Source of the DNA: a virus
Taxonomy: Duplodnaviria; Heunggongvirae; Uroviricota; Caudoviricetes
Length of the DNA stretch: 44,652 nt
Strand: one strand, 5' to 3'
IMG/VR virus record: IMGVR_UViG_3300045988_039442
Coordinates: 1 to 44,652 of that record
This document shows positions 1 to 44,652 of this stretch, piece by piece. Position 1 is the first letter of the stretch. The number at the start of each line of letters is the position of its first letter. The position numbers and the translations under genes were made by a program. Below the pieces are notes generated by a model. It worked only from the letters and a program-made list of their open reading frames with translations, was not told the DNA's origin and did no database searches.

Positions 1-55
1 AGTGACGTCTATGTGGTGCGCGCGTTTTGGGGGTTGGTATGAAATATATATATAT
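1..55. repeat. Terminal direct repeat, left copy (identical to 44598-44652)
   Basis: Exact 55-bp identity between the two window ends; 55 is a common assembler k-mer, so this may be a circularisation overlap. Confidence 0.9.
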
Positions 56-9285: not shown

Positions 9286-9317
9286 CGAAAAAGGCCCCGT
9301 TATGGGGCCTTAGTTTT
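9286..9317. terminator. bidirectional hairpin terminator between convergent portal and DpdA-like genes
   Basis: AAGGCCCC-GTTAT-GGGGCCTT with flanking A and T tracts. Confidence 0.65.
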
Positions 9318-10682: not shown

Positions 10683-10714
10683 TGAATAGTACCCTATTAT
10701 ATTGGTGTCTGCAA
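10683..10714 (-). promoter_or_regulatory. conserved promoter/operator element, copy 1, leftward
   Basis: TGAATAGTACCCTATTATATTGGTGTCTGCAA; minus strand reads TTGCAGAC ... TATAAT; contains the AATAG-N4-CTATT palindrome. Confidence 0.55.
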
Positions 10715-12263: not shown

Positions 12264-12290
12264 TAAAAGGCCCCGAAAGGGGCCTTAGCT
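12263..12290. terminator. bidirectional hairpin terminator
   Basis: AAGGCCCC-GAAA-GGGGCCTT. Confidence 0.6.
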
Positions 12291-12487: not shown

Positions 12488-12519
12488 TGAATAGTACCCT
12501 ATTATATTGGTGTCTGCAA
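12488..12519 (-). promoter_or_regulatory. conserved promoter/operator element, copy 2, leftward
   Basis: Identical over 32 bp to 10683-10714. Confidence 0.55.
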
Positions 12520-12585
12520 ACTATTTATTTACCTATTCCGGTTATTCCACCCAATTGTAAATGTTGGAATAAACTATTCGAATAG

Positions 12586-12729
12586 TTGACTTTTCACTAA
12601 AAATGTGCTAAGCTCCACCTGAGCTTGTGAAGTATGAACAAGCGACCGCGGTGCGGCAGGAGAACGGAGCGGTGCGTTAGCACTGAGTGTAGTGTCGCTG
12701 CCCGCATTCGGAAGGGCCATACTCTATTG
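12586..12729 (+). ncRNA. conserved structured non-coding element, paralogue A
   Basis: About 80% identical to 43731-43873; own TTGACT-N17-TAAGCT promoter; indels not in multiples of 3; hairpins with compensatory changes. Confidence 0.45.
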
Positions 12730-12792
12730 CTTGTGTAAAAAGTAGCTGGTTTACTGAGATTACGCCGTTTCTATGTTTAAATGATAAGGACT

Positions 12793-12820
12793 AGCGCCCC
12801 GCTTTAAGGCGGGGCTTTAC
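12793..12820 (+). terminator. rho-independent terminator
   Basis: GCCCCGC-TTTAAG-GCGGGGC followed by TTTACTT. Confidence 0.55.
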
Positions 12821-12839
12821 TTATCGAGAAAGGAGAAAC

Positions 12840-13226: not shown

Positions 13227-13335
13227 CGACGCTGATGAGGATTTAGCTATTGACGTCCAGAACGCTGAATGCGTACGGCAACTGAGGCTGAAAGTGTTCA
13301 TGTTGCAGGATTACGTGAGGAATATTCTGGAATAG
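13072..13335 (+). CDS. o-spanin (Rz1-like lipoprotein) overlapping Rz in another frame
   Basis: GTG start after GAGGTGA; signal peptide with lipobox LASC; Pro-rich mature region. Confidence 0.55.
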   Translation: MKSLSTLKRLAAACALSTMLASCSSPAPSPTPTPSPDMTMMQPPCKLAQPSSDADEDLAIDVQNAECVRQLRLKVFMLQDYVRNILE

Positions 13336-13417
13336 TTGCCTTGCATATTGGAATAATTTATTCTTGACATGTAAATCCGGGTGGCCCGGATTCCAACGTC
13401 CAGGGGACATACTGACT

Positions 13418-15171: not shown

Positions 15172-15187
15172 GGTTAAGATATAATCG

Positions 15188-15214
15188 AGAGGGACTTCGG
15201 TCCCTCTTTTCATT
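15188..15214 (+). terminator. rho-independent terminator after the capsid gene
   Basis: AGAGGGAC-TTCG-GTCCCTCT followed by TTTT. Confidence 0.7.
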
Positions 15215-19566: not shown

Positions 19567-19596
19567 AACTAAGGCCCCTTTCGGGGCCTTTTCTTA
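19566..19596. terminator. bidirectional hairpin terminator
   Basis: AAGGCCCC-TTTC-GGGGCCTT followed by TTCTT. Confidence 0.65.
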
Positions 19597-22358: not shown

Positions 22359-22390
22359 TGAATAGTACCCTATTATATTGGGGTGTGCAA
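22359..22390 (-). promoter_or_regulatory. conserved promoter/operator element, copy 3, leftward
   Basis: TGAATAGTACCCTATTATATTGGGGTGTGCAA; drives the four-gene leftward operon 22333 to 19760. Confidence 0.55.
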
Positions 22391-31367: not shown

Positions 31368-31396
31368 AACTAAGGCCCCAAACGGGGCCTTTTCTC
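31368..31396. terminator. bidirectional hairpin terminator between the convergent structural and replication blocks
   Basis: AAGGCCCC-AAAC-GGGGCCTT followed by TTCT. Confidence 0.65.
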
Positions 31397-34307: not shown

Positions 34308-34604
34308 TTAGGGTATGTGTTTACTATAATAGTCCGCTATTAGGGTGTCAACCTGTTTAAACGAACCAACGACAAAAACATTCGCGCCGCGTTTACGCAT
34401 CCGCTCGTGCTCGCGTAGCTGGTGCGGGTCGGGCTTCGTGTTTTCGTCTTTCTTAACCTCGACGAACCAGATGATGCCGTCGGGGAGAATTACCAGCAGG
34501 TCGGGAGCACCGGAACGTCCTTCGTAGGAGAGCTTGCGAACGAGGCCCCCCAGGGCCTCGAACCTCTCTTTCGCGTATTTCTGCACGCGACCCTCTTTAG
34601 TCAT
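34308..34604 (-). CDS. VRR-NUC domain nuclease
   Basis: PDLLVILPDG ... WFVEVK is a PD-(D/E)XK core typical of VRR-NUC; ATG at 34604 within ORF 34308..34784. Confidence 0.6.
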   Translation of the reverse strand: MTKEGRVQKYAKERFEALGGLVRKLSYEGRSGAPDLLVILPDGIIWFVEVKKDENTKPDPHQLREHERMRKRGANVFVVGSFKQVDTLIADYYSKHIP

Positions 34605-37216: not shown

Positions 37217-37843
37217 TTAGCGGCGGCGACGTTCGCGGCGCGGTGCTCCATCTTCTTCGTCGTCTTCCAGGTCATCGACACTCGCAGCGACTTTAGAACC
37301 ACCGAACGCTTTACCTTCTCCGACGTATTTAATTGCCAGCAGGTTAACACCGAGAACTTTGTATTTCTGGCTGAACCAGATTTCAACGCTTACGTTAGCG
37401 ACGCAGCCGCTGTAAACCTGTTCACCTTCAATCTGTTCGCCGTCTACATTGAAATCCTGCTCTACCTGAGTCTCGCCTTTTTTAGAGGTTACAATCAGAG
37501 GCTGTTTCTGTGCTTTCGCTTTGAAGTAGAAGCCTTCCGGGAAGTCTTCAAACGGATTGTCACGCTCGGCAATGTCCTTAATCGCACATTTATCCATGTG
37601 CTTACCTTCGCCGTAGTTGGACTTCATCCACTTATCGGCGGCGGCTGCACCTAACGCTTCTTCAACTACGGCGTAAACAGTGTCATAGAGTGCATCGATT
37701 TGAGCATGGTCAGACGGCAGGATGATAGTTGCGCTGTACTGCCCCTTAGTGATTGAACCATCATCGTTTTCACGGTCTTTTTCGCGTTCGAATACGTTAA
37801 CCCATGCAGTGTTTACTTTACGCAGATTCAGTTTAATACCCAT
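37217..37843 (-). CDS. ssDNA-binding protein-like (DUF2815/gp2.5-like) with acidic C-terminal tail
   Basis: C-terminal DDLEDDEEDG acidic tail; position in the replication block. Confidence 0.5.
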   Translation of the reverse strand: MGIKLNLRKVNTAWVNVFEREKDRENDDGSITKGQYSATIILPSDHAQIDALYDTVYAVVEEALGAAAADKWMKSNYGEGKHMDKCAIKDIAERDNPFEDFPEGFYFKAKAQKQPLIVTSKKGETQVEQDFNVDGEQIEGEQVYSGCVANVSVEIWFSQKYKVLGVNLLAIKYVGEGKAFGGSKVAASVDDLEDDEEDGAPRRERRRR

Positions 37844-37889: not shown

Positions 37890-37915
37890 GATTAGAAATA
37901 TAATAGCTAACTATT
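37890..37915 (+). promoter_or_regulatory. degenerate copy of the promoter/operator element (AATAG-N4-CTATT with TATAAT)
   Basis: AAATATAATAGCTAACTATTCAGG; nearly identical to the site at 40491-40516; orientation and function unclear. Confidence 0.35.
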
Positions 37916-37921
37916 CAGGTG

Positions 37922-38080
37922 TCAACGCTTAATTTTAGAAACTTTCTCACACCAATGAACATAGCGTTCTATGGGTTGACTACCTCTAAACTTACAATCT
38001 ATCCAAGCAATAGATGAAGTAAAAGCAGATATAACTACCAATGGTGATAATAAAGCCCAATACACGATTTTACGAATCAT
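37922..38080 (-). CDS. small membrane protein (52 aa)
   Basis: ATG at 38080 overlapping the exonuclease stop, within ORF 37922..38110. Confidence 0.4.
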   Translation of the reverse strand: MIRKIVYWALLSPLVVISAFTSSIAWIDCKFRGSQPIERYVHWCEKVSKIKR

Positions 38081-40490: not shown

Positions 40491-40562
40491 GCTAACTATA
40501 ATAGCTAACTATTCACGATGTCAATGGGCTTTTCTAAAATAATTAATATGGTACTATTCACA
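40491..40562 (+). promoter_or_regulatory. promoter/operator region of the XRE regulator: two AATAG-like palindromic sites plus TATAAT
   Basis: TATAAT at 40497-40502 within CTAACTATAATAGCTAACTATTCACG; second site AATATGGTACTATTCAC at 40545-40561 sits between promoter and RBS. Confidence 0.45.
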
Positions 40563-40588: not shown

Positions 40589-40804
40589 ATGCAACCATCT
40601 GAACTAGGCATCCGTGTAGAACAACGCCGTAAAGAACTCGGCATCTCACAGCGCCGTCTGGCTGTTCTGGCCGGCGTTTCCCAGGGTGCGATTAACCAGC
40701 TTGCGCTCGGCGTAACTCAGGACGTCCGCCCGGCGACGCTGTTTAAACTGGCGGAAGTGCTGGAAGTAGACGCCAAGTGGCTGGCGTTCGGTGAAGGGGC
40801 TTAA
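40589..40804 (+). CDS. XRE-family (Cro/CI-type) helix-turn-helix transcriptional regulator
   Basis: LGISQRRLAVLAGVSQGAINQL HTH; RBS AAGGAG; only + strand gene inside the replication block. Confidence 0.7.
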   Translation: MQPSELGIRVEQRRKELGISQRRLAVLAGVSQGAINQLALGVTQDVRPATLFKLAEVLEVDAKWLAFGEGA

Positions 40805-43153: not shown

Positions 43154-43444
43154 TTATCTATTGGCCAGGCATTCCATCAAATGTGCGTACTTACGATAAT
43201 AATCTACGACAATCTCATCGCCGAAATACTGATAAACGTACGATAAGTGGTCAGAGACATCAATGGAGGCCGACATTGTGCTGAGTCTTCGGAGACTAAT
43301 CAACTGCAATTCTTCTGTAACGCAAAACGGCGAATAAGAGTCCAGCTTACAAGAAACGTTAAAACACAACGCGTACTTGCCTTGCACTAAATAGACCATA
43401 TAAGAATTGTCGTTCTCTTTATCATGGAATATTACACCTTTCAT
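43154..43444 (-). CDS. hypothetical protein
   Basis: ORF track entry; ATGA overlap with the upstream gene. Confidence 0.45.
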   Translation of the reverse strand: MKGVIFHDKENDNSYMVYLVQGKYALCFNVSCKLDSYSPFCVTEELQLISLRRLSTMSASIDVSDHLSYVYQYFGDEIVVDYYRKYAHLMECLANR

Positions 43445-43623
43445 TTCACGTTCTCCTTAATCCACGCTTCAACTTTATTACGGTCAAATGTACCCGGTAA
43501 ACGGCGGCCCATAACCTTAATACAGCAATCCGGGAATTTACCACTGCGCAACCAGTTATTAATTGTCTGACGGGTCACCCCGATACGTTCTGCTACTTCA
43601 TTCTGGGTCATGTAATGCTGCAT
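43441..43623 (-). CDS. small HTH DNA-binding protein (AlpA/excisionase-like HTH_17), first gene of the replication block
   Basis: MTQNEVAERIGVTRQTINNWL motif; ATG at 43623 preceded by the conserved AGGAGA leader. Confidence 0.55.
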   Translation of the reverse strand: MQHYMTQNEVAERIGVTRQTINNWLRSGKFPDCCIKVMGRRLPGTFDRNKVEAWIKENVK

Positions 43624-43730: not shown

Positions 43731-43873
43731 TTGACTTTTACTTAAAAATATGCTAAGCTTCACTGAGCTTGTGAGATATCGCAAGCGACCGCGGAGCGGC
43801 AGGGAACGCAACGCGTGCCATTAGGCACTTGAGTGTAGTTCCGCTGGCGCTTTCGGAAGGGCCAAAGTCTATT
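43731..43873 (+). ncRNA. conserved structured non-coding element, paralogue B
   Basis: About 80% identical to 12586-12729, including the TTGACT-N17-TAAGCT promoter. Confidence 0.45.
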
Positions 43874-44039
43874 GTTAATCCCGCCTAAATACCCAAGTCA
43901 CTGATAATTAAAAGTTTCTATAATTGCCGTAAACAAGGTAGAGAGTACTTCACTCCGCTGGGGTGGGCTAACGCCCACCCACTGCGTTGCGTACTCTTTT
44001 AAGAAACGAAAGAATCACAACGGCAACGTAACTATTCTC

Positions 44040-44071
44040 TTGCACACCCCAATATAATAGGATACTATTCA
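44040..44071 (+). promoter_or_regulatory. conserved promoter/operator element, rightward copy driving the early block
   Basis: TTGCACACCCCAATATAATAGGATACTATTCA is the reverse complement of the 22359-22390 element; about 30 bp upstream of the RBS at 44091. Confidence 0.55.
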
Positions 44072-44102: not shown

Positions 44103-44177
44103 ATGTTTAAGAAGGGTCAGTTGGTGAAAACGAAACGCGGCGGACATTACGCAATAATTAAACGAGTTTCGAATTAA
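44103..44177 (+). CDS. very small early ORF (24 aa); the same frame continues protein-like after an in-frame TAA to 44270
   Basis: RBS GGAGTGAGGG before the ATG; MFKKGQLVKTKRGG N-terminus; TAA at 44175-44177. Confidence 0.3.
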   Translation: MFKKGQLVKTKRGGHYAIIKRVSN

Positions 44178-44597: not shown

Positions 44598-44652
44598 AGT
44601 GACGTCTATGTGGTGCGCGCGTTTTGGGGGTTGGTATGAAATATATATATAT
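44598..44652. repeat. Terminal direct repeat, right copy (identical to 1-55)
   Basis: Exact match to the window start; the window ends inside the repeat. Confidence 0.9.

What the first reader, a model, noticed from the sequence alone, without database searches (positions are those of the whole stretch)
43731..43873. Paralogous non-coding element B at the boundary between the replication block and the early genes
This second copy of the element described at 12586-12729 sits between the divergently transcribed replication operon (first gene at 43623) and the early promoter at 44040. A GGGTGGGC-TAAC-GCCCACCC hairpin lies downstream at 43960-43980. Its placement where the two main early transcription directions meet fits either a regulatory RNA or a replication/packaging-related DNA site.
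Basis: seen in the sequence. Interest (0 to 1): 0.55.

Follow-up and report, generated by a model that had tools for sequence, protein, structure and literature searches.

The report
Self-promoted structured phage leader RNA
The element is a real second copy of a bacterial-type promoter joined to the gene for a conserved, folded RNA of about 110 bases, an RNA family of one phage group that is in no RNA database, whose job is untested but is most likely to act on transcription of the genes downstream.

Summary
Window 43731-43873 is a paralog of 12586-12729: 87% identity, and covariance-model scores of 108.6 and 122.8 bits with no third copy.

The window is a complete Kagunavirus-like (Guernseyvirinae) siphophage genome.

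The first 29 nt of the "element" are a sigma-70 promoter of the extended -10 type (TTGACT-N14-TGnTAAGCT). The rest encodes an RNA that starts at about +1 with a short hairpin (P1). A roughly 70-nt irregular hairpin (P2) follows, then an invariant GGAAGGG...UCUAUUG flank.

The fold is strongly supported. 96-97% of cells are paired and 16 of 30 pairs show compensatory changes, against 28-44% paired in slid controls. Several conserved G-U pairs make the fold specific to the + strand.

- **Copy A** is found throughout the group, more conserved than the neighbouring coding sequence, and heads the spanin and structural genes.
- **Copy B** occurs in only about 40 of 181 phage records. It sits in a hypervariable cassette for a non-coding RNA, upstream of the early promoter.

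There is no Rfam match and no E. coli homolog. ORFs annotated over the element are spurious.

Function is not established. My best guess (0.35) is a cis-acting RNA that modifies RNA polymerase, analogous to but not homologous with HK022 put. The rivals are a stand-alone non-coding RNA, a leader that controls mRNA stability or binds a protein, and a replication-origin transcript.

The parts
43731..43759 (+). Promoter P_B: -35 TTGACT (43731-43736), 17-nt spacer with extended -10 TG (43751-43752), -10 TAAGCT (43754-43759)
   Evidence: Read directly from the sequence. The full pattern TTGACT-N14-TGnTAAGCT occurs without mismatch only at A and B. It is conserved in all copies. The TSS is predicted, not mapped.
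43764..43769 (+). TGAGCT, a near-repeat of the -10 hexamer, spanning the predicted start site (about 43765-43767). It is a candidate sigma-dependent pause element.
   Evidence: for class I (TAAGCT-N4/5-TGAGCT). Class II has an exact repeat, TACGCT-ACC-TACGCT. Class III has none. The pause function is an inference.
43767..43786 (+). P1: the 5'-terminal hairpin GCUUGUG-AGAUAU-CGCAAGC
   Evidence: Folds. It is replaced by unrelated hairpins of the same position in class II (ACGCU-UUC-AGCGU) and class III (GUUC-UAC-GAAC). Four of its 6 pairs have compensatory changes.
43789..43857 (+). P2: a long irregular hairpin. The base CCGCGGAGCGG / GCGCUUUCGG is conserved. The internal loops are conserved (GAGUGUAG). 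The apical hairpin GUGCC-AUUA-GGCAC (43816-43829) is variable.
   Evidence: All 5 apical pairs and 7 of the 17 pairs in the main P2 helix show compensatory changes. Five different apical stems were seen.
43858..43874 (+). Conserved single-stranded 3' flank AAGGGCCAAAGUCUAUUG. GGRAGG and UCUAUUG are invariant in class I. CGG-AAGGG(C/U)C is shared by all three classes.
43875..43940 (+). Locus-specific AU-rich tail of the B transcript. It is distantly similar to the A tail and to the tails of other B-locus cassettes.
43941..44000 (+). Compound hairpin: outer stem GAGAGUAC/GUACUCUU and inner stem GGGGUGGGC-UAAC-GCCCACCC, followed by UUUU. It is a possible but atypical intrinsic terminator and the likely 3' end of a roughly 235-nt RNA.
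   Evidence: Fold. The consensus terminator scan does not call it.
44040..44068 (+). Early promoter P_E (TTGCAC-17-TACTAT). It belongs to the context, not to the element.
   Evidence: The motif has been published as repeated 'phage promoters' in a relative (PMC9825357).
12586..12614 (+). Promoter P_A (TTGACT-17-TAAGCT with TG at 12606-12607), paralog of P_B
12616..12731 (+). Copy A of the RNA core: P1 12623-12643, P2 12646-12711, flank 12712-12729
   Evidence: Covariance-model hit at 122.8 bits. Folds.
12730..12822 (+). Tail of copy A plus the GC hairpin GCCCCGCU-UUAA-GGCGGGGC followed by UUUACUU. It ends 18 nt before the i-spanin start codon (12840).
   Evidence: There is a compensatory change in the hairpin (GCCCTGC/GCAGGGC in L035). 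The U tract is weak in class I and absent in classes II and III.
12542..12585 (.). Candidate operator sites upstream of P_A only: inverted TTATTCCA...TGGAATAA (12542-12572) and the palindrome ACTATTC|GAATAGT (12572-12585). P_B lacks them.
   Evidence: Equivalent GAATA/TATTC palindromes lie just upstream of the -35 in class II and class III and upstream of the scaffold gene.

Best explanation
Element B is a duplicated, portable module. It consists of a host-type (sigma-70, extended -10) promoter fused to the gene for a structured RNA whose fold begins at about +1. The fold is a short 5' hairpin (P1), a 1-2 nt junction, a long irregular hairpin (P2), and a conserved single-stranded GGAAGGG...UCUAUUG flank.

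Shown here:
- the promoter consensus;
- the fold and its covariation;
- the strand specificity of the fold;
- the family's distribution and the exchange of cores between the two loci.

Inferred mechanism: the RNA works in cis and during transcription. As it leaves the polymerase that is making it, the region around the P1/P2 junction, the base of P2 and the flank binds the elongation complex, directly or through a factor. That makes the polymerase resistant to pauses and terminators.

On this model, transcription from P_A reads through the leader hairpin, the strong terminator after the capsid gene, and on through the structural genes. Transcription from P_B would read through the hairpin at 43941-44000 and the early-region terminators towards the lysis and packaging genes.

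This is the logic of putL and putR in phage HK022, but the RNA is unrelated to put.

Copy A carries upstream operator-like palindromes, so it is probably switched on at a set time. Copy B lacks them and would be constitutive.
For: 1. Promoter and RNA travel as one module. The homology between A and B starts exactly at the -35 hexamer and stops at UCUAUUG. This promoter type occurs only at these two sites.
2. The RNA fold is real. In class I, 97.3% of cells are paired and 8 pairs have double changes. With class II added, 96.1% are paired and 16 of 30 pairs have double changes, against 28-44% paired when partners are slid.
3. The architecture matches put: two stem-loops starting within a few nt of the start of the transcript, and two paralogous copies heading two transcription units (PMC9378689).
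4. Cores are exchanged between the two loci while the tails stay locus-specific. The window's A-locus variant is otherwise seen at B loci (L024, L071). No database phage has it at the A locus; the best match there is below 95%. So the core's function does not depend on which genes lie downstream.
5. Across three divergent classes, the conserved parts are the junction, the base of P2 and the GGAAGGG flank. The distal part of P2 varies with compensation. That pattern fits a binding surface for something the classes have in common, which would include the host transcription machinery.
6. A repeat of the -10 hexamer spans the start site in class I and class II, where it is exact. Sigma-dependent pause elements are used by both putL and lambda Q loading (abstract of 10.1101/2022.03.25.485794).
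7. The spanin start codon lies 18 nt after the leader hairpin, so transcripts must pass through it. A strong terminator follows the capsid gene, 23 nt before the next gene. Relatives are annotated with several + strand terminators between early, lysis and packaging genes.
8. No Q- or N-like protein was recognised among 20 small ORFs.
Against: - No transcription data exist. The TSS, the 3' ends and any read-through are all predictions.
- There is no sequence or model similarity to put.
- The whole 200-nt unit at locus A, including the AU-rich tail, is more conserved than the coding sequence next to it (variability 0.011-0.021 against 0.108 at third codon positions). A pure antiterminator would not need that.
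- The need for antitermination is weak. The + strand has other promoter-like sites (2577, 3722, 3844 and 5653; a possible TGcTAGAAT promoter before the tail genes; a TTGACA before the scaffold gene).
- The hairpin after copy A has a poor U tract, or none in classes II and III.
- In most relatives the B locus holds unrelated RNAs followed by canonical terminators, and then a separate early promoter. That looks like an insulated, stand-alone RNA gene.
- Copy B is dispensable in nature: it is absent from about 140 of 181 records.
Confidence: 0.35

Rival explanations
1. Stand-alone non-coding RNA gene. P_B drives a roughly 235-nt RNA (P_A a roughly 200-nt RNA) that ends at the downstream hairpin and acts in trans. 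It could sequester or decoy a host or defence protein, or work as a base-pairing small RNA. Read-through into the spanin genes at locus A would then be incidental, as with the StxS RNA made from the lambda-type late promoter.
For: - The whole locus-A unit, tail and hairpin included, is under stronger constraint than the coding sequence.
- In every Guernseyvirinae genome I read, the B locus is a promoter, a 250-300 nt non-coding stretch and a terminator, followed by a separate early promoter. The 5' domain varies and the 3' tail is partly shared.
- High turnover at an early locus is typical of accessory or anti-defence functions.
- A 5' hairpin and a 3' hairpin are typical of stable small RNAs.
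- There is a precedent for a leader-derived regulatory RNA (PMC7547250, listed).
Against: - No antisense target longer than chance was found in the phage genome (12-mers only).
- Nothing similar was found in E. coli genomes by DNA similarity search.
- The core is highly structured rather than seed-like.
- At locus A the 3' hairpin has no U tract in classes II and III and abuts the spanin ribosome-binding site, so the RNA is physically a 5' UTR there.
- Both copies point the same way as the operon downstream.
Confidence: 0.25
2. A 5' leader acting after transcription. The 5'-terminal hairpin and the folded domain could protect downstream mRNA from RppH and RNase E. Alternatively they could form the operator for a phage or host RNA-binding protein, or for a ribosome standing by on the SD-like GGAAGG, to control mRNA stability or translation.
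For: - The structure begins at the predicted +1.
- The GGRAGG motif resembles a Shine-Dalgarno sequence and is invariant. In Golestan it is GGGAGG.
- An invariant UUG lies 11 nt downstream in classes I and II and opens tiny, non-conserved ORFs.
- The module is portable between operons.
- Copy A is physically the spanin 5' UTR.
Against: - Simple protection of the 5' end needs only P1. It would not need a 70-nt P2 with conserved internal loops.
- No consistent pairing exists between the core and the downstream ribosome-binding sites or terminator arms (read by eye).
- Class III lacks the UUG.
- Copy B is separated from the first early gene by a hairpin and a second promoter.
Confidence: 0.2
3. 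Replication-related transcript or site. Transcription from P_B at the point where the leftward and rightward operons diverge activates or primes a replication origin. The structured RNA or its R-loop would serve as primer or as an opening device. This is the DNA-site option of the first reader.
For: - Copy B lies next to the replication operon, at the cumulative GC-skew minimum (about 43.5 kb).
- Promoter-dependent origins are known in other phages and plasmids (general knowledge).
Against: - GC skew tracks gene orientation everywhere in this genome.
- The universal copy (A) sits among the structural genes.
- Copy B is missing from most relatives, which replicate anyway.
- Neither the direct-repeat search nor reading of the two units showed an AT-rich unwinding element or iterons next to the core. 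Inverted repeats were not searched in the window.
- G-U pairs argue against a duplex-DNA cruciform.
- Packaging in this group is headful, from a P22-like small terminase.
Confidence: 0.05
4. Small protein gene. GenBank records annotate a 36-aa ORF (MNKRPRRGQ...) over copy A, and short minus-strand ORFs over the B locus.
For: Annotated CDSs: Bas70_0007, CPT_Snoke_007 (with a called ribosome-binding site) and SHAK7693_0007. The N-terminus is arginine-rich.
Against: - The ORF runs from 9 to 36 aa among class I variants because of 1-nt indels.
- Copy B, class II and class III have no ATG at that position.
- The substitution pattern is compensatory pairing, not codon-wise.
Confidence: 0.02

Closest known systems
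HK022 putL/putR (polymerase-utilization RNAs; cis-acting, factor-independent processive antiterminators)
   Same: - Two paralogous copies in one phage genome, each at the head of a transcription unit.
- The RNA fold begins within a few nucleotides of a sigma-70 promoter's start site, as in putL.
- Two stem-loops joined by 1-2 unpaired nucleotides, the second long with bulges and internal loops.
- A -10-like hexamer in the initial transcribed region.
- No dedicated antiterminator protein recognisable in the genome.
   Different: - No sequence or covariance-model similarity.
- The core is about 110 nt against about 70 nt for put.
- The host phage is a virulent siphophage, not a lambdoid one.
- There is an extra invariant single-stranded GGAAGGG...UCUAUUG flank.
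- The downstream tail is also highly conserved.
- One copy is optional in the group.
- Antitermination activity and binding to the beta' zinc-binding domain are untested.
Lambda-type late leader (PR' - 6S RNA - tR' with Q antiterminator; the StxS RNA of Stx phages)
   Same: - A host-type promoter ahead of late (lysis and structural) genes.
- A leader of about 200 nt ending in a hairpin just before the first gene.
- A possible sigma-dependent pause element at the start site.
- The short RNA could have a second role in trans, as StxS does.
   Different: - No Q-like protein was found.
- What is conserved here is an RNA fold with covariation, not a DNA Q-binding element.
- The hairpin is a weak terminator, or no terminator, in classes II and III.
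Lambda N/nut and rrn boxA antitermination sites
   Same: A signal in the nascent RNA near the start of long operons. In lambda there are two copies, nutL and nutR.
   Different: - No boxA. The nearest match, ACUCUAUU, differs from GCUCUUUA at 3 of 8 positions.
- The apical loops are not conserved (GUAA, GUUA, AUUA, UGUAG, UCACAA, UCC), so there is no equivalent of boxB.
- No N-like arginine-rich protein was identified.
Phage- and prophage-encoded small RNAs (Hfq-type)
   Same: A transcription unit with its own promoter, of about 200-240 nt, with a 3' hairpin. It lies in an intergenic cassette next to the early genes.
   Different: - The 5' domain is almost fully base-paired rather than presenting a single-stranded seed.
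- The U tail is poor or absent at locus A.
- No targets were found.

Membership tests
HK022 put RNA | Encoded just downstream of a sigma-70 promoter, so that the RNA folds as it leaves the polymerase (putL starts at +3) | tested here: met
   TTGACT-17-(TGn)TAAGCT with P1 starting 7-8 nt after the -10 in both copies. The TSS is predicted from the consensus, not mapped.
HK022 put RNA | Two stem-loops joined by about one unpaired nucleotide, the second with bulges and non-canonical pairs | tested here: met
   P1, a GA junction and P2, supported by covariation and by single-sequence folds of five class I variants.
HK022 put RNA | Sequence and structure homology to putL/putR | tested here: not met
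   Model R1 finds nothing in the HK022 immunity region (L034) at E <= 10. Reading putL and putR shows no alignable similarity. No put model was built for the reverse test.
HK022 put RNA | Two paralogous copies heading separate operons | tested here: met
   This holds in only about 40 of 181 related records.
HK022 put RNA | Suppresses terminators in cis without protein factors; binds the RNAP beta' zinc-binding domain | not testable with these tools
   Needs in vitro transcription, rpoC mutants and structural work.
HK022 put RNA | A -10-like element in the initial transcribed region (putL) that causes sigma-dependent pausing | tested here: inconclusive
   Class I has TGAGCT/GAGCTT at about -1 to +6. 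Class II has an exact repeat of its -10, TACGCT. Class III has none.
Lambda Q / PR' late regulatory region | A Q-family antiterminator gene in the genome | tested here: not met
   PHROGs scan of 20 small ORFs in the early and regulatory regions gives no antitermination family. Not every ORF in the genome was scanned.
Lambda Q / PR' late regulatory region | A promoter-proximal terminator that stops unmodified RNAP | tested here: inconclusive
   Copy A class I: an 8-bp GC stem followed by UUUACUU. Classes II and III: no U tract. Copy B: a compound hairpin followed by UUUU, not called by the scan.
N/nut or rrn antitermination site | boxA (GCUCUUUA) and a boxB hairpin with a conserved loop | tested here: not met
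   The nearest boxA-like string has 3 mismatches in 8. The apical loops vary freely.
RfaH/ops leader | An ops element GGCGGTAGnnTG on the non-template strand of the leader | tested here: not met
   No + strand match with 2 or fewer mismatches inside either unit.
Riboswitch or classical attenuator | Match to a known aptamer, or mutually exclusive pairing between the conserved domain and the terminator | tested here: not met
   No Rfam hit at gathering threshold or at E <= 10. The conserved core has no complement to the 5' arm of either downstream hairpin (GCCCCGC at A, GGGGUGGGC at B), and the 65-80 nt linkers are not conserved between the copies.
Hfq-type trans-acting sRNA | A Rho-independent terminator with a U tail, and a conserved single-stranded seed with targets | tested here: inconclusive
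   The U tails are weak. Antisense matches within the phage genome are at chance level. Host targets could not be searched.
Any Rfam 15 family, or tRNA/tmRNA | A covariance-model or ARAGORN match | tested here: not met

The most novel reading that the evidence does not exclude
A second, evolutionarily independent class of RNA-only processive antiterminator. On this reading it is a promoter-linked nascent RNA of virulent Guernseyvirinae phages that loads onto E. coli or Salmonella RNA polymerase at a sigma-dependent pause. It would carry the polymerase through terminators across the late (and, via copy B, the early-to-lysis-to-packaging) transcription units, without any phage protein.
Probability: 0.22. 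Interest if true: 0.8.

Novelty: new member of a known kind. Interest (0 to 1): 0.55.

Why it matters
- **A new RNA family.** Guernseyvirinae (Kagunavirus, Jerseyvirus) are among the most often isolated E. coli and Salmonella phages used for therapy and biocontrol, yet their transcription programme is unmapped. This work defines a strongly supported structured RNA family that is absent from Rfam. It has its own promoter and sits at the head of the spanin and structural genes.
- **Annotation errors.** The family is currently annotated as "hypothetical protein" ORFs in GenBank records.
- **If it modifies RNA polymerase in cis.** It would be only the second phage RNA of the put kind. It would give a compact, portable promoter-plus-antiterminator part for E. 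coli.
- **If it is a trans-acting RNA.** It would be a rare case of an essential-looking non-coding RNA in virulent siphophages.
- **Either way.** The B locus turns out to be a hypervariable cassette for non-coding RNA that is worth experimental attention.

Tried and rejected
- **Rfam.** Searched at gathering threshold and at E <= 10 on both units and on the Bas70 B locus. Only chance-level hits (OrzO-P, ctRNA, rpsB and others).
- **tRNA/tmRNA.** None found.
- **Protein-coding reading.** The ORF is not conserved.
- **ops element for RfaH.** Absent.
- **boxA/boxB.** Not present, judged by eye against the consensus.
- **CRISPR-repeat mimic (type I-E).** A local resemblance in copy B is not conserved in copy A. 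Rejected by eye.
- **Resemblance to 4.5S or 5S rRNA (loop E) words.** Noted by eye, but no Rfam support, so not pursued.
- **Pseudoknot between the P1 loop (AGUAUG) and the flank (CAUACU).** The flank position varies (C/G/A/U) without compensation, and the pairing fails in copy B. Rejected by eye.
- **Pairing of UCUAUUG with the GUAG of the internal loop.** Broken in Golestan. Rejected.
- **Antisense targets in the phage genome.** Only 11-12-mers, which is chance level.
- **Homologs in E. coli genomes.** None.
- **Third copy in the window.** None.
- **Homology of the other B-locus RNAs (Bas70, SP-101, SHAK7693 types) to this family.** No model hits.
- **Metagenome-wide pattern scan.** It returned only the same variants plus chance matches, and gave no information on transcript boundaries.
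- **Literature.** Searches for transcriptomes or non-coding RNAs of this phage group found nothing relevant.
- **Necessity argument for antitermination.** Scans for terminators and promoters show other candidate + strand promoters, so the argument is inconclusive.
Full report
**What the window is.** The 44,652-nt window is a complete phage genome assembled as a circle: its first and last 55 nt are identical. It is 90-97% identical to Kagunavirus and Jerseyvirus phages of the subfamily Guernseyvirinae, such as fFiEco02/03, Bas70-76, Golestan and K1G.

The gene order, taken from annotated relatives, is as follows.
- A rightward block runs through small early genes, then holin and endolysin, terminase, portal and head morphogenesis.
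- Copy A comes next, followed by the spanins, scaffold, capsid, and head-tail and tail genes.
- Short leftward cassettes interrupt this block. They are flanked by bidirectional terminators.
- The replication genes run leftward, from 43623 down to about 31400.
- Copy B lies in the 480-nt gap between the first leftward gene (an HTH protein, 43441-43623) and the first early gene (ATG at 44103).

**Checking the observation.**
- Windows 12586-12729 and 43731-43873 align at 87% identity.
- Their longest conserved words occur nowhere else in the genome.
- A covariance model of the family scores 122.8 and 108.6 bits at these two places and nothing elsewhere.

**Anatomy.** The block begins with TTGACT, a 17-nt spacer that ends in TGn, and TAAGCT. 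That is a sigma-70 promoter of the extended -10 type. The simple promoter scan misses it because only three of the six -10 positions match TATAAT. The full pattern, however, is unique to A and B in the genome and is conserved in every copy.

The homology between A and B starts exactly at the -35 hexamer. Upstream of that point the two loci are unrelated.

About seven nucleotides after the -10, the transcript would begin with these parts:
- a 6-7 bp hairpin, P1 (43767-43786);
- a GA junction;
- a roughly 70-nt irregular hairpin, P2 (43789-43857), with a conserved base, conserved internal loops and a variable apical hairpin;
- an invariant single-stranded flank, AAGGGCC...UCUAUUG (43858-43874).

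Further downstream there is a locus-specific AU-rich tail and then a GC-rich hairpin.
- In B it is the compound hairpin 43941-43998, followed by UUUU.
- In A it is 12796-12815, followed by UUUACUU, ending 18 nt before the i-spanin start codon.

**Is the RNA fold real?** I collected copies from IMG/VR contigs found by pattern scans, from nine whole phage genomes and from relatives found through the capsid protein.
- On 31 distinct class I sequences, 97.3% of cells form standard pairs and 8 pairs show changes on both sides. When partners are slid by 1-3 columns, only 30-40% pair.
- A more divergent class II sits at the same genomic position and scores 42-46 bits. With it included, 96.1% of cells pair and 16 of 30 pairs have compensatory changes, against 28-44% in slid controls.
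- Five different apical stems were seen (GGAC/GUCC, GUGC/GCAC, GUGCC/GGCAC, GGGC/GCCC, CACG/CGUG).
- One P2 position appears as C-G, U-A or A-U.

These alignments were fitted to the model, which inflates the percentage paired. Whole helices replaced by different helices cannot come from fitting.

Four pairs are G-U in most sequences. They would be A-C mismatches on the other strand. The structure therefore belongs to the + strand transcript, which matches the promoter orientation.

**A third class.** Class III lies at the same place, upstream of the i-spanin gene.
- It has the same promoter type (TGGACT-17-TGaTAACCT).
- It has a different P1 (GUUC-UAC-GAAC) and a long P2 with a GGUGCC-UCC-GGCAC tip.
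- It has the same CGG-AAGGG(U/C)C flank.
- The models detect it only weakly, at 13-15 bits, but they do so at the right spot in 5 of 5 loci.

Across the three classes, the conserved parts are the promoter type, a hairpin at +1, the base of P2 and the GGAAGGG flank.

**Not coding, and not a known RNA.**
- GenBank records annotate a 36-aa ORF over copy A. Single-nucleotide indels make it 9-36 aa long in different class I variants, and it is absent from copy B and from classes II and III.
- Rfam 15 gives nothing at gathering threshold or at E <= 10.
- ARAGORN gives nothing.
- E. coli genomes hold nothing similar.

**Distribution and evolution.**
- A blastn search finds the element in 181 phage records, all from this phage group. 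There are 224 places in total, so about 40 records carry two copies.
- In all ten genomes read in full, the window included, the copy before the spanin genes (A) is present.
- Among 35 distinct sequences, the whole locus-A unit is more conserved than the spanin gene next to it. Variability is 0.012 for the core, 0.011 for the tail and 0.021 for the hairpin. In the spanin gene it is 0.03 at codon positions 1-2 and 0.108 at position 3.
- Copy B is optional.

In Bas70 (whose type is found in 21 records), in Salmonella phage SP-101 and in SHAK7693, the same gap holds other units of promoter, structured RNA and terminator. Their 5' domains are unrelated to this family. Their 3' tails and terminators are partly shared, and conserved sequence flanks them on both sides. 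The B locus is therefore a hypervariable cassette for non-coding RNA. In the window's lineage its 5' domain has been replaced by the promoter-plus-core module from locus A.

Cores also move in the other direction.
- The window's A-locus variant is found at the B locus of other phages (L024, L071).
- No database phage carries it at the A locus. The best identity there is below 95%.

The tails do not move with the cores. The promoter-plus-core is thus a portable unit whose function does not depend on the neighbouring genes.

**Regulatory context.** Just upstream of the -35 of P_A there is a perfect palindrome, ACTATTC|GAATAGT. Further upstream lies an inverted pair, TTATTCCA...TGGAATAA. TGGAATAA occurs 5 times in the genome against 1.3 expected, and three of those five lie at the two late-gene leaders.

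Classes II and III have equivalent GAATA/TATTC palindromes at the same position. So does the region before the scaffold gene.

The same half-site lies inside the five-copy early-promoter motif CCAATATAATAGGnTACTATTC. That motif has been published as repeated "phage promoters" in a relative (PMC9825357).

P_B has none of these sites. I infer that P_A is controlled at initiation by a DNA-binding protein and that P_B is constitutive. This is untested.

**What it most likely does.** The data establish an RNA-level, strand-specific, portable element made from its own promoter and placed at the 5' end of rightward transcripts. They do not establish its activity. I favour a cis-acting, co-transcriptional effect on RNA polymerase (antipausing or antitermination), at a probability of about 0.35.

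Reasons for this choice:
- **Architecture.** The layout matches HK022 put: about two stem-loops starting at the beginning of the transcript, and two paralogous copies heading two operons (PMC9378689).
- **Conservation pattern.** Conservation is concentrated at the junction, the base of P2 and the flank. That suits a binding surface for a partner the three classes share, which would include the host transcription machinery.
- **Portability.** The core is exchanged between operons.
- **Pause element.** A repeat of the -10 hexamer spans the start site: TAAGCT...TGAGCT in class I, and an exact TACGCT-ACC-TACGCT in class II. Both putL and Q loading use sigma-dependent pauses.
- **Obstacles downstream.** Transcripts have to pass the leader hairpin to reach the spanin genes. 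There is a strong terminator after the capsid gene (15187-15208). Relatives have several + strand terminators.
- **No known factor.** No Q- or N-like protein is recognisable.

Reasons against:
- There is no homology to put.
- The tail at locus A is as conserved as the core.
- The leader hairpins are weak terminators, or not terminators at all, in classes II and III.
- Other promoter-like sites exist along the + strand.
- The B locus has the layout of an insulated, stand-alone RNA gene in most relatives.
- Copy B is dispensable.

**Rivals.**
- A stand-alone trans-acting RNA of 200-240 nt (0.25) explains the conservation of the tail and the cassette layout. It has no identified target and does not fit the locus-A hairpins that lack U tracts.
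- A post-transcriptional leader (0.2) would protect the 5' end or act as a protein or ribosome operator through the SD-like GGRAGG. It fits the 5' position but not the size of the element or the separate promoter downstream of B.
- An origin-associated transcript (0.05) is suggested only by B's position at the point of divergence and the skew minimum.
- A protein-coding reading (0.02) is effectively excluded.

**Comparison with known systems.** The closest analogue in function is HK022 put. The layout features are met, but the homology test is not, and the defining activity cannot be tested here. I therefore do not file this as a put RNA. The lambda Q/PR' leader, N/nut, RfaH/ops, riboswitches and Hfq-type small RNAs were each considered. 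Their defining features are either not met or inconclusive (see the membership table).

**Verdict.** This is a genuine, previously undescribed structured-RNA family with its own promoter. It is a new member of a known kind: a phage cis-regulatory leader or non-coding RNA. The regulatory-RNA reading is supported, and the replication or packaging reading is not. Interest is moderate (0.55). It would be high if the put-like mechanism were shown.

Noticed in passing
window 1-55 and 44598-44652: An exact 55-nt terminal duplication. The window is a circularly assembled complete genome of about 44,597 bp.
   Followed up: yes
window 44049-44070 (+), 913-934 (+, 3 mismatches), 10684-10705 (-), 12489-12510 (-), 22360-22381 (-): A five-copy motif, CCAATATAATAGGnTACTATTC, against 0 expected by chance. 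It reads as a sigma-70 promoter, TTGCA(C/G)-17-TACTAT, and drives the early genes and the three leftward cassettes. In a relative the same motif was published as promoters for a 'phage-encoded RNA polymerase' (PMC9825357). No RNA polymerase gene is annotated in the nine relatives' annotation tables I read.
   Followed up: partly
window 12542-12585 and 13320-13369; class II/III loci, e.g. L111 about 1975-2000 and L122 1590-1625: GAATA/TATTC palindromes and TTATTCCA/TGGAATAA inverted repeats lie just upstream of the -35 of P_A in all three RNA classes, and upstream of a TTGACA before the scaffold gene. The same half-site lies in the -10 region of the early promoters. This suggests one DNA-binding protein that shuts off the early promoters and controls the late ones. 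The candidates are the HTH proteins at 43441-43623 (-) and 40589-40804 (+).
   Followed up: partly
L001 36230-36560; L076 35095-35395; L078 38410-38705; L072 6580-6858 (-); L073 37602-37880: The gap between the replication operon and the early promoter is a hypervariable cassette across Guernseyvirinae. In the five genomes where I read it, it holds a sigma-70-type promoter, a 250-300 nt non-coding stretch and a terminator-like hairpin. There are at least four unrelated structured 5' domains. A 3' tail is partly shared (...GTGCCGTAGATTCGCAACCGTAAAAATGTAACGATTAnTGGGCAGG...CCTGCCCTTTAG). None has an Rfam match where tested.
   Followed up: partly
L001 5282-5392; L075 6449-6559 and 37709-37816 (-); L078 5278-5388; L001 36258-36359 (-), 36509-36625 (-): GenBank 'hypothetical protein' CDSs drawn over the RNA element and over the B-locus cassettes are very probably spurious gene calls.
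   Followed up: yes
window 12616-12731 compared with L024 1605-1720 and L071 632-747 (-): The core variant at the window's A locus is otherwise found at the B locus of other phages. This indicates gene conversion of the core between the two loci in both directions, while the tails stay locus-specific.
   Followed up: partly
L111/L104/L131 about 2000-2030 (class II); window 12609-12625 and 43754-43769: The -10 hexamer is repeated a few nucleotides downstream, as the 5' arm of P1. Class II has TACGCT-ACC-TACGCT (exact). Class I has TAAGCT-N4/5-TGAGCT. The -10 hexamer and the P1 arm differ together between classes I and II.
   Followed up: partly
window 9291-9311, 12267-12286, 19571-19590, 31372-31391: A family of near-identical bidirectional terminators, AAGGCCCC-loop-GGGGCCTT. 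They lie at boundaries between rightward gene blocks and leftward cassettes or the replication operon.
   Followed up: no
L073 about 37790-37815: The B-locus tail of phage Golestan contains a (CTCA)n microsatellite, CTCACTCACTCACTCACTCACTC.
   Followed up: no
L078 (OR594180.1): The GenBank taxonomy line of phage vB_EcoM_SHAK7693 reads Autographiviridae; Kayfunavirus. Its gene order and sequence are those of a Kagunavirus-like siphophage, so the record is probably misclassified.
   Followed up: no
window 40495-40524 (-), 37897-37925 (-), 34323-34351 (-): Three near-consensus sigma-70 promoters (11 of 12 matches) lie inside the leftward replication block. Nothing comparable is seen in the rightward late block.
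   Followed up: no
L139, L140, L134 (capsid protein 84-86% identical): In these more distant relatives the spanin genes follow endolysin directly upstream of the scaffold and capsid genes. I did not find the element in them: the default-filter model scan covered all three, the unfiltered scan only L140, and a motif grep found nothing. The element may go with the arrangement in which the spanins are split from the lysis cassette.
   Followed up: partly
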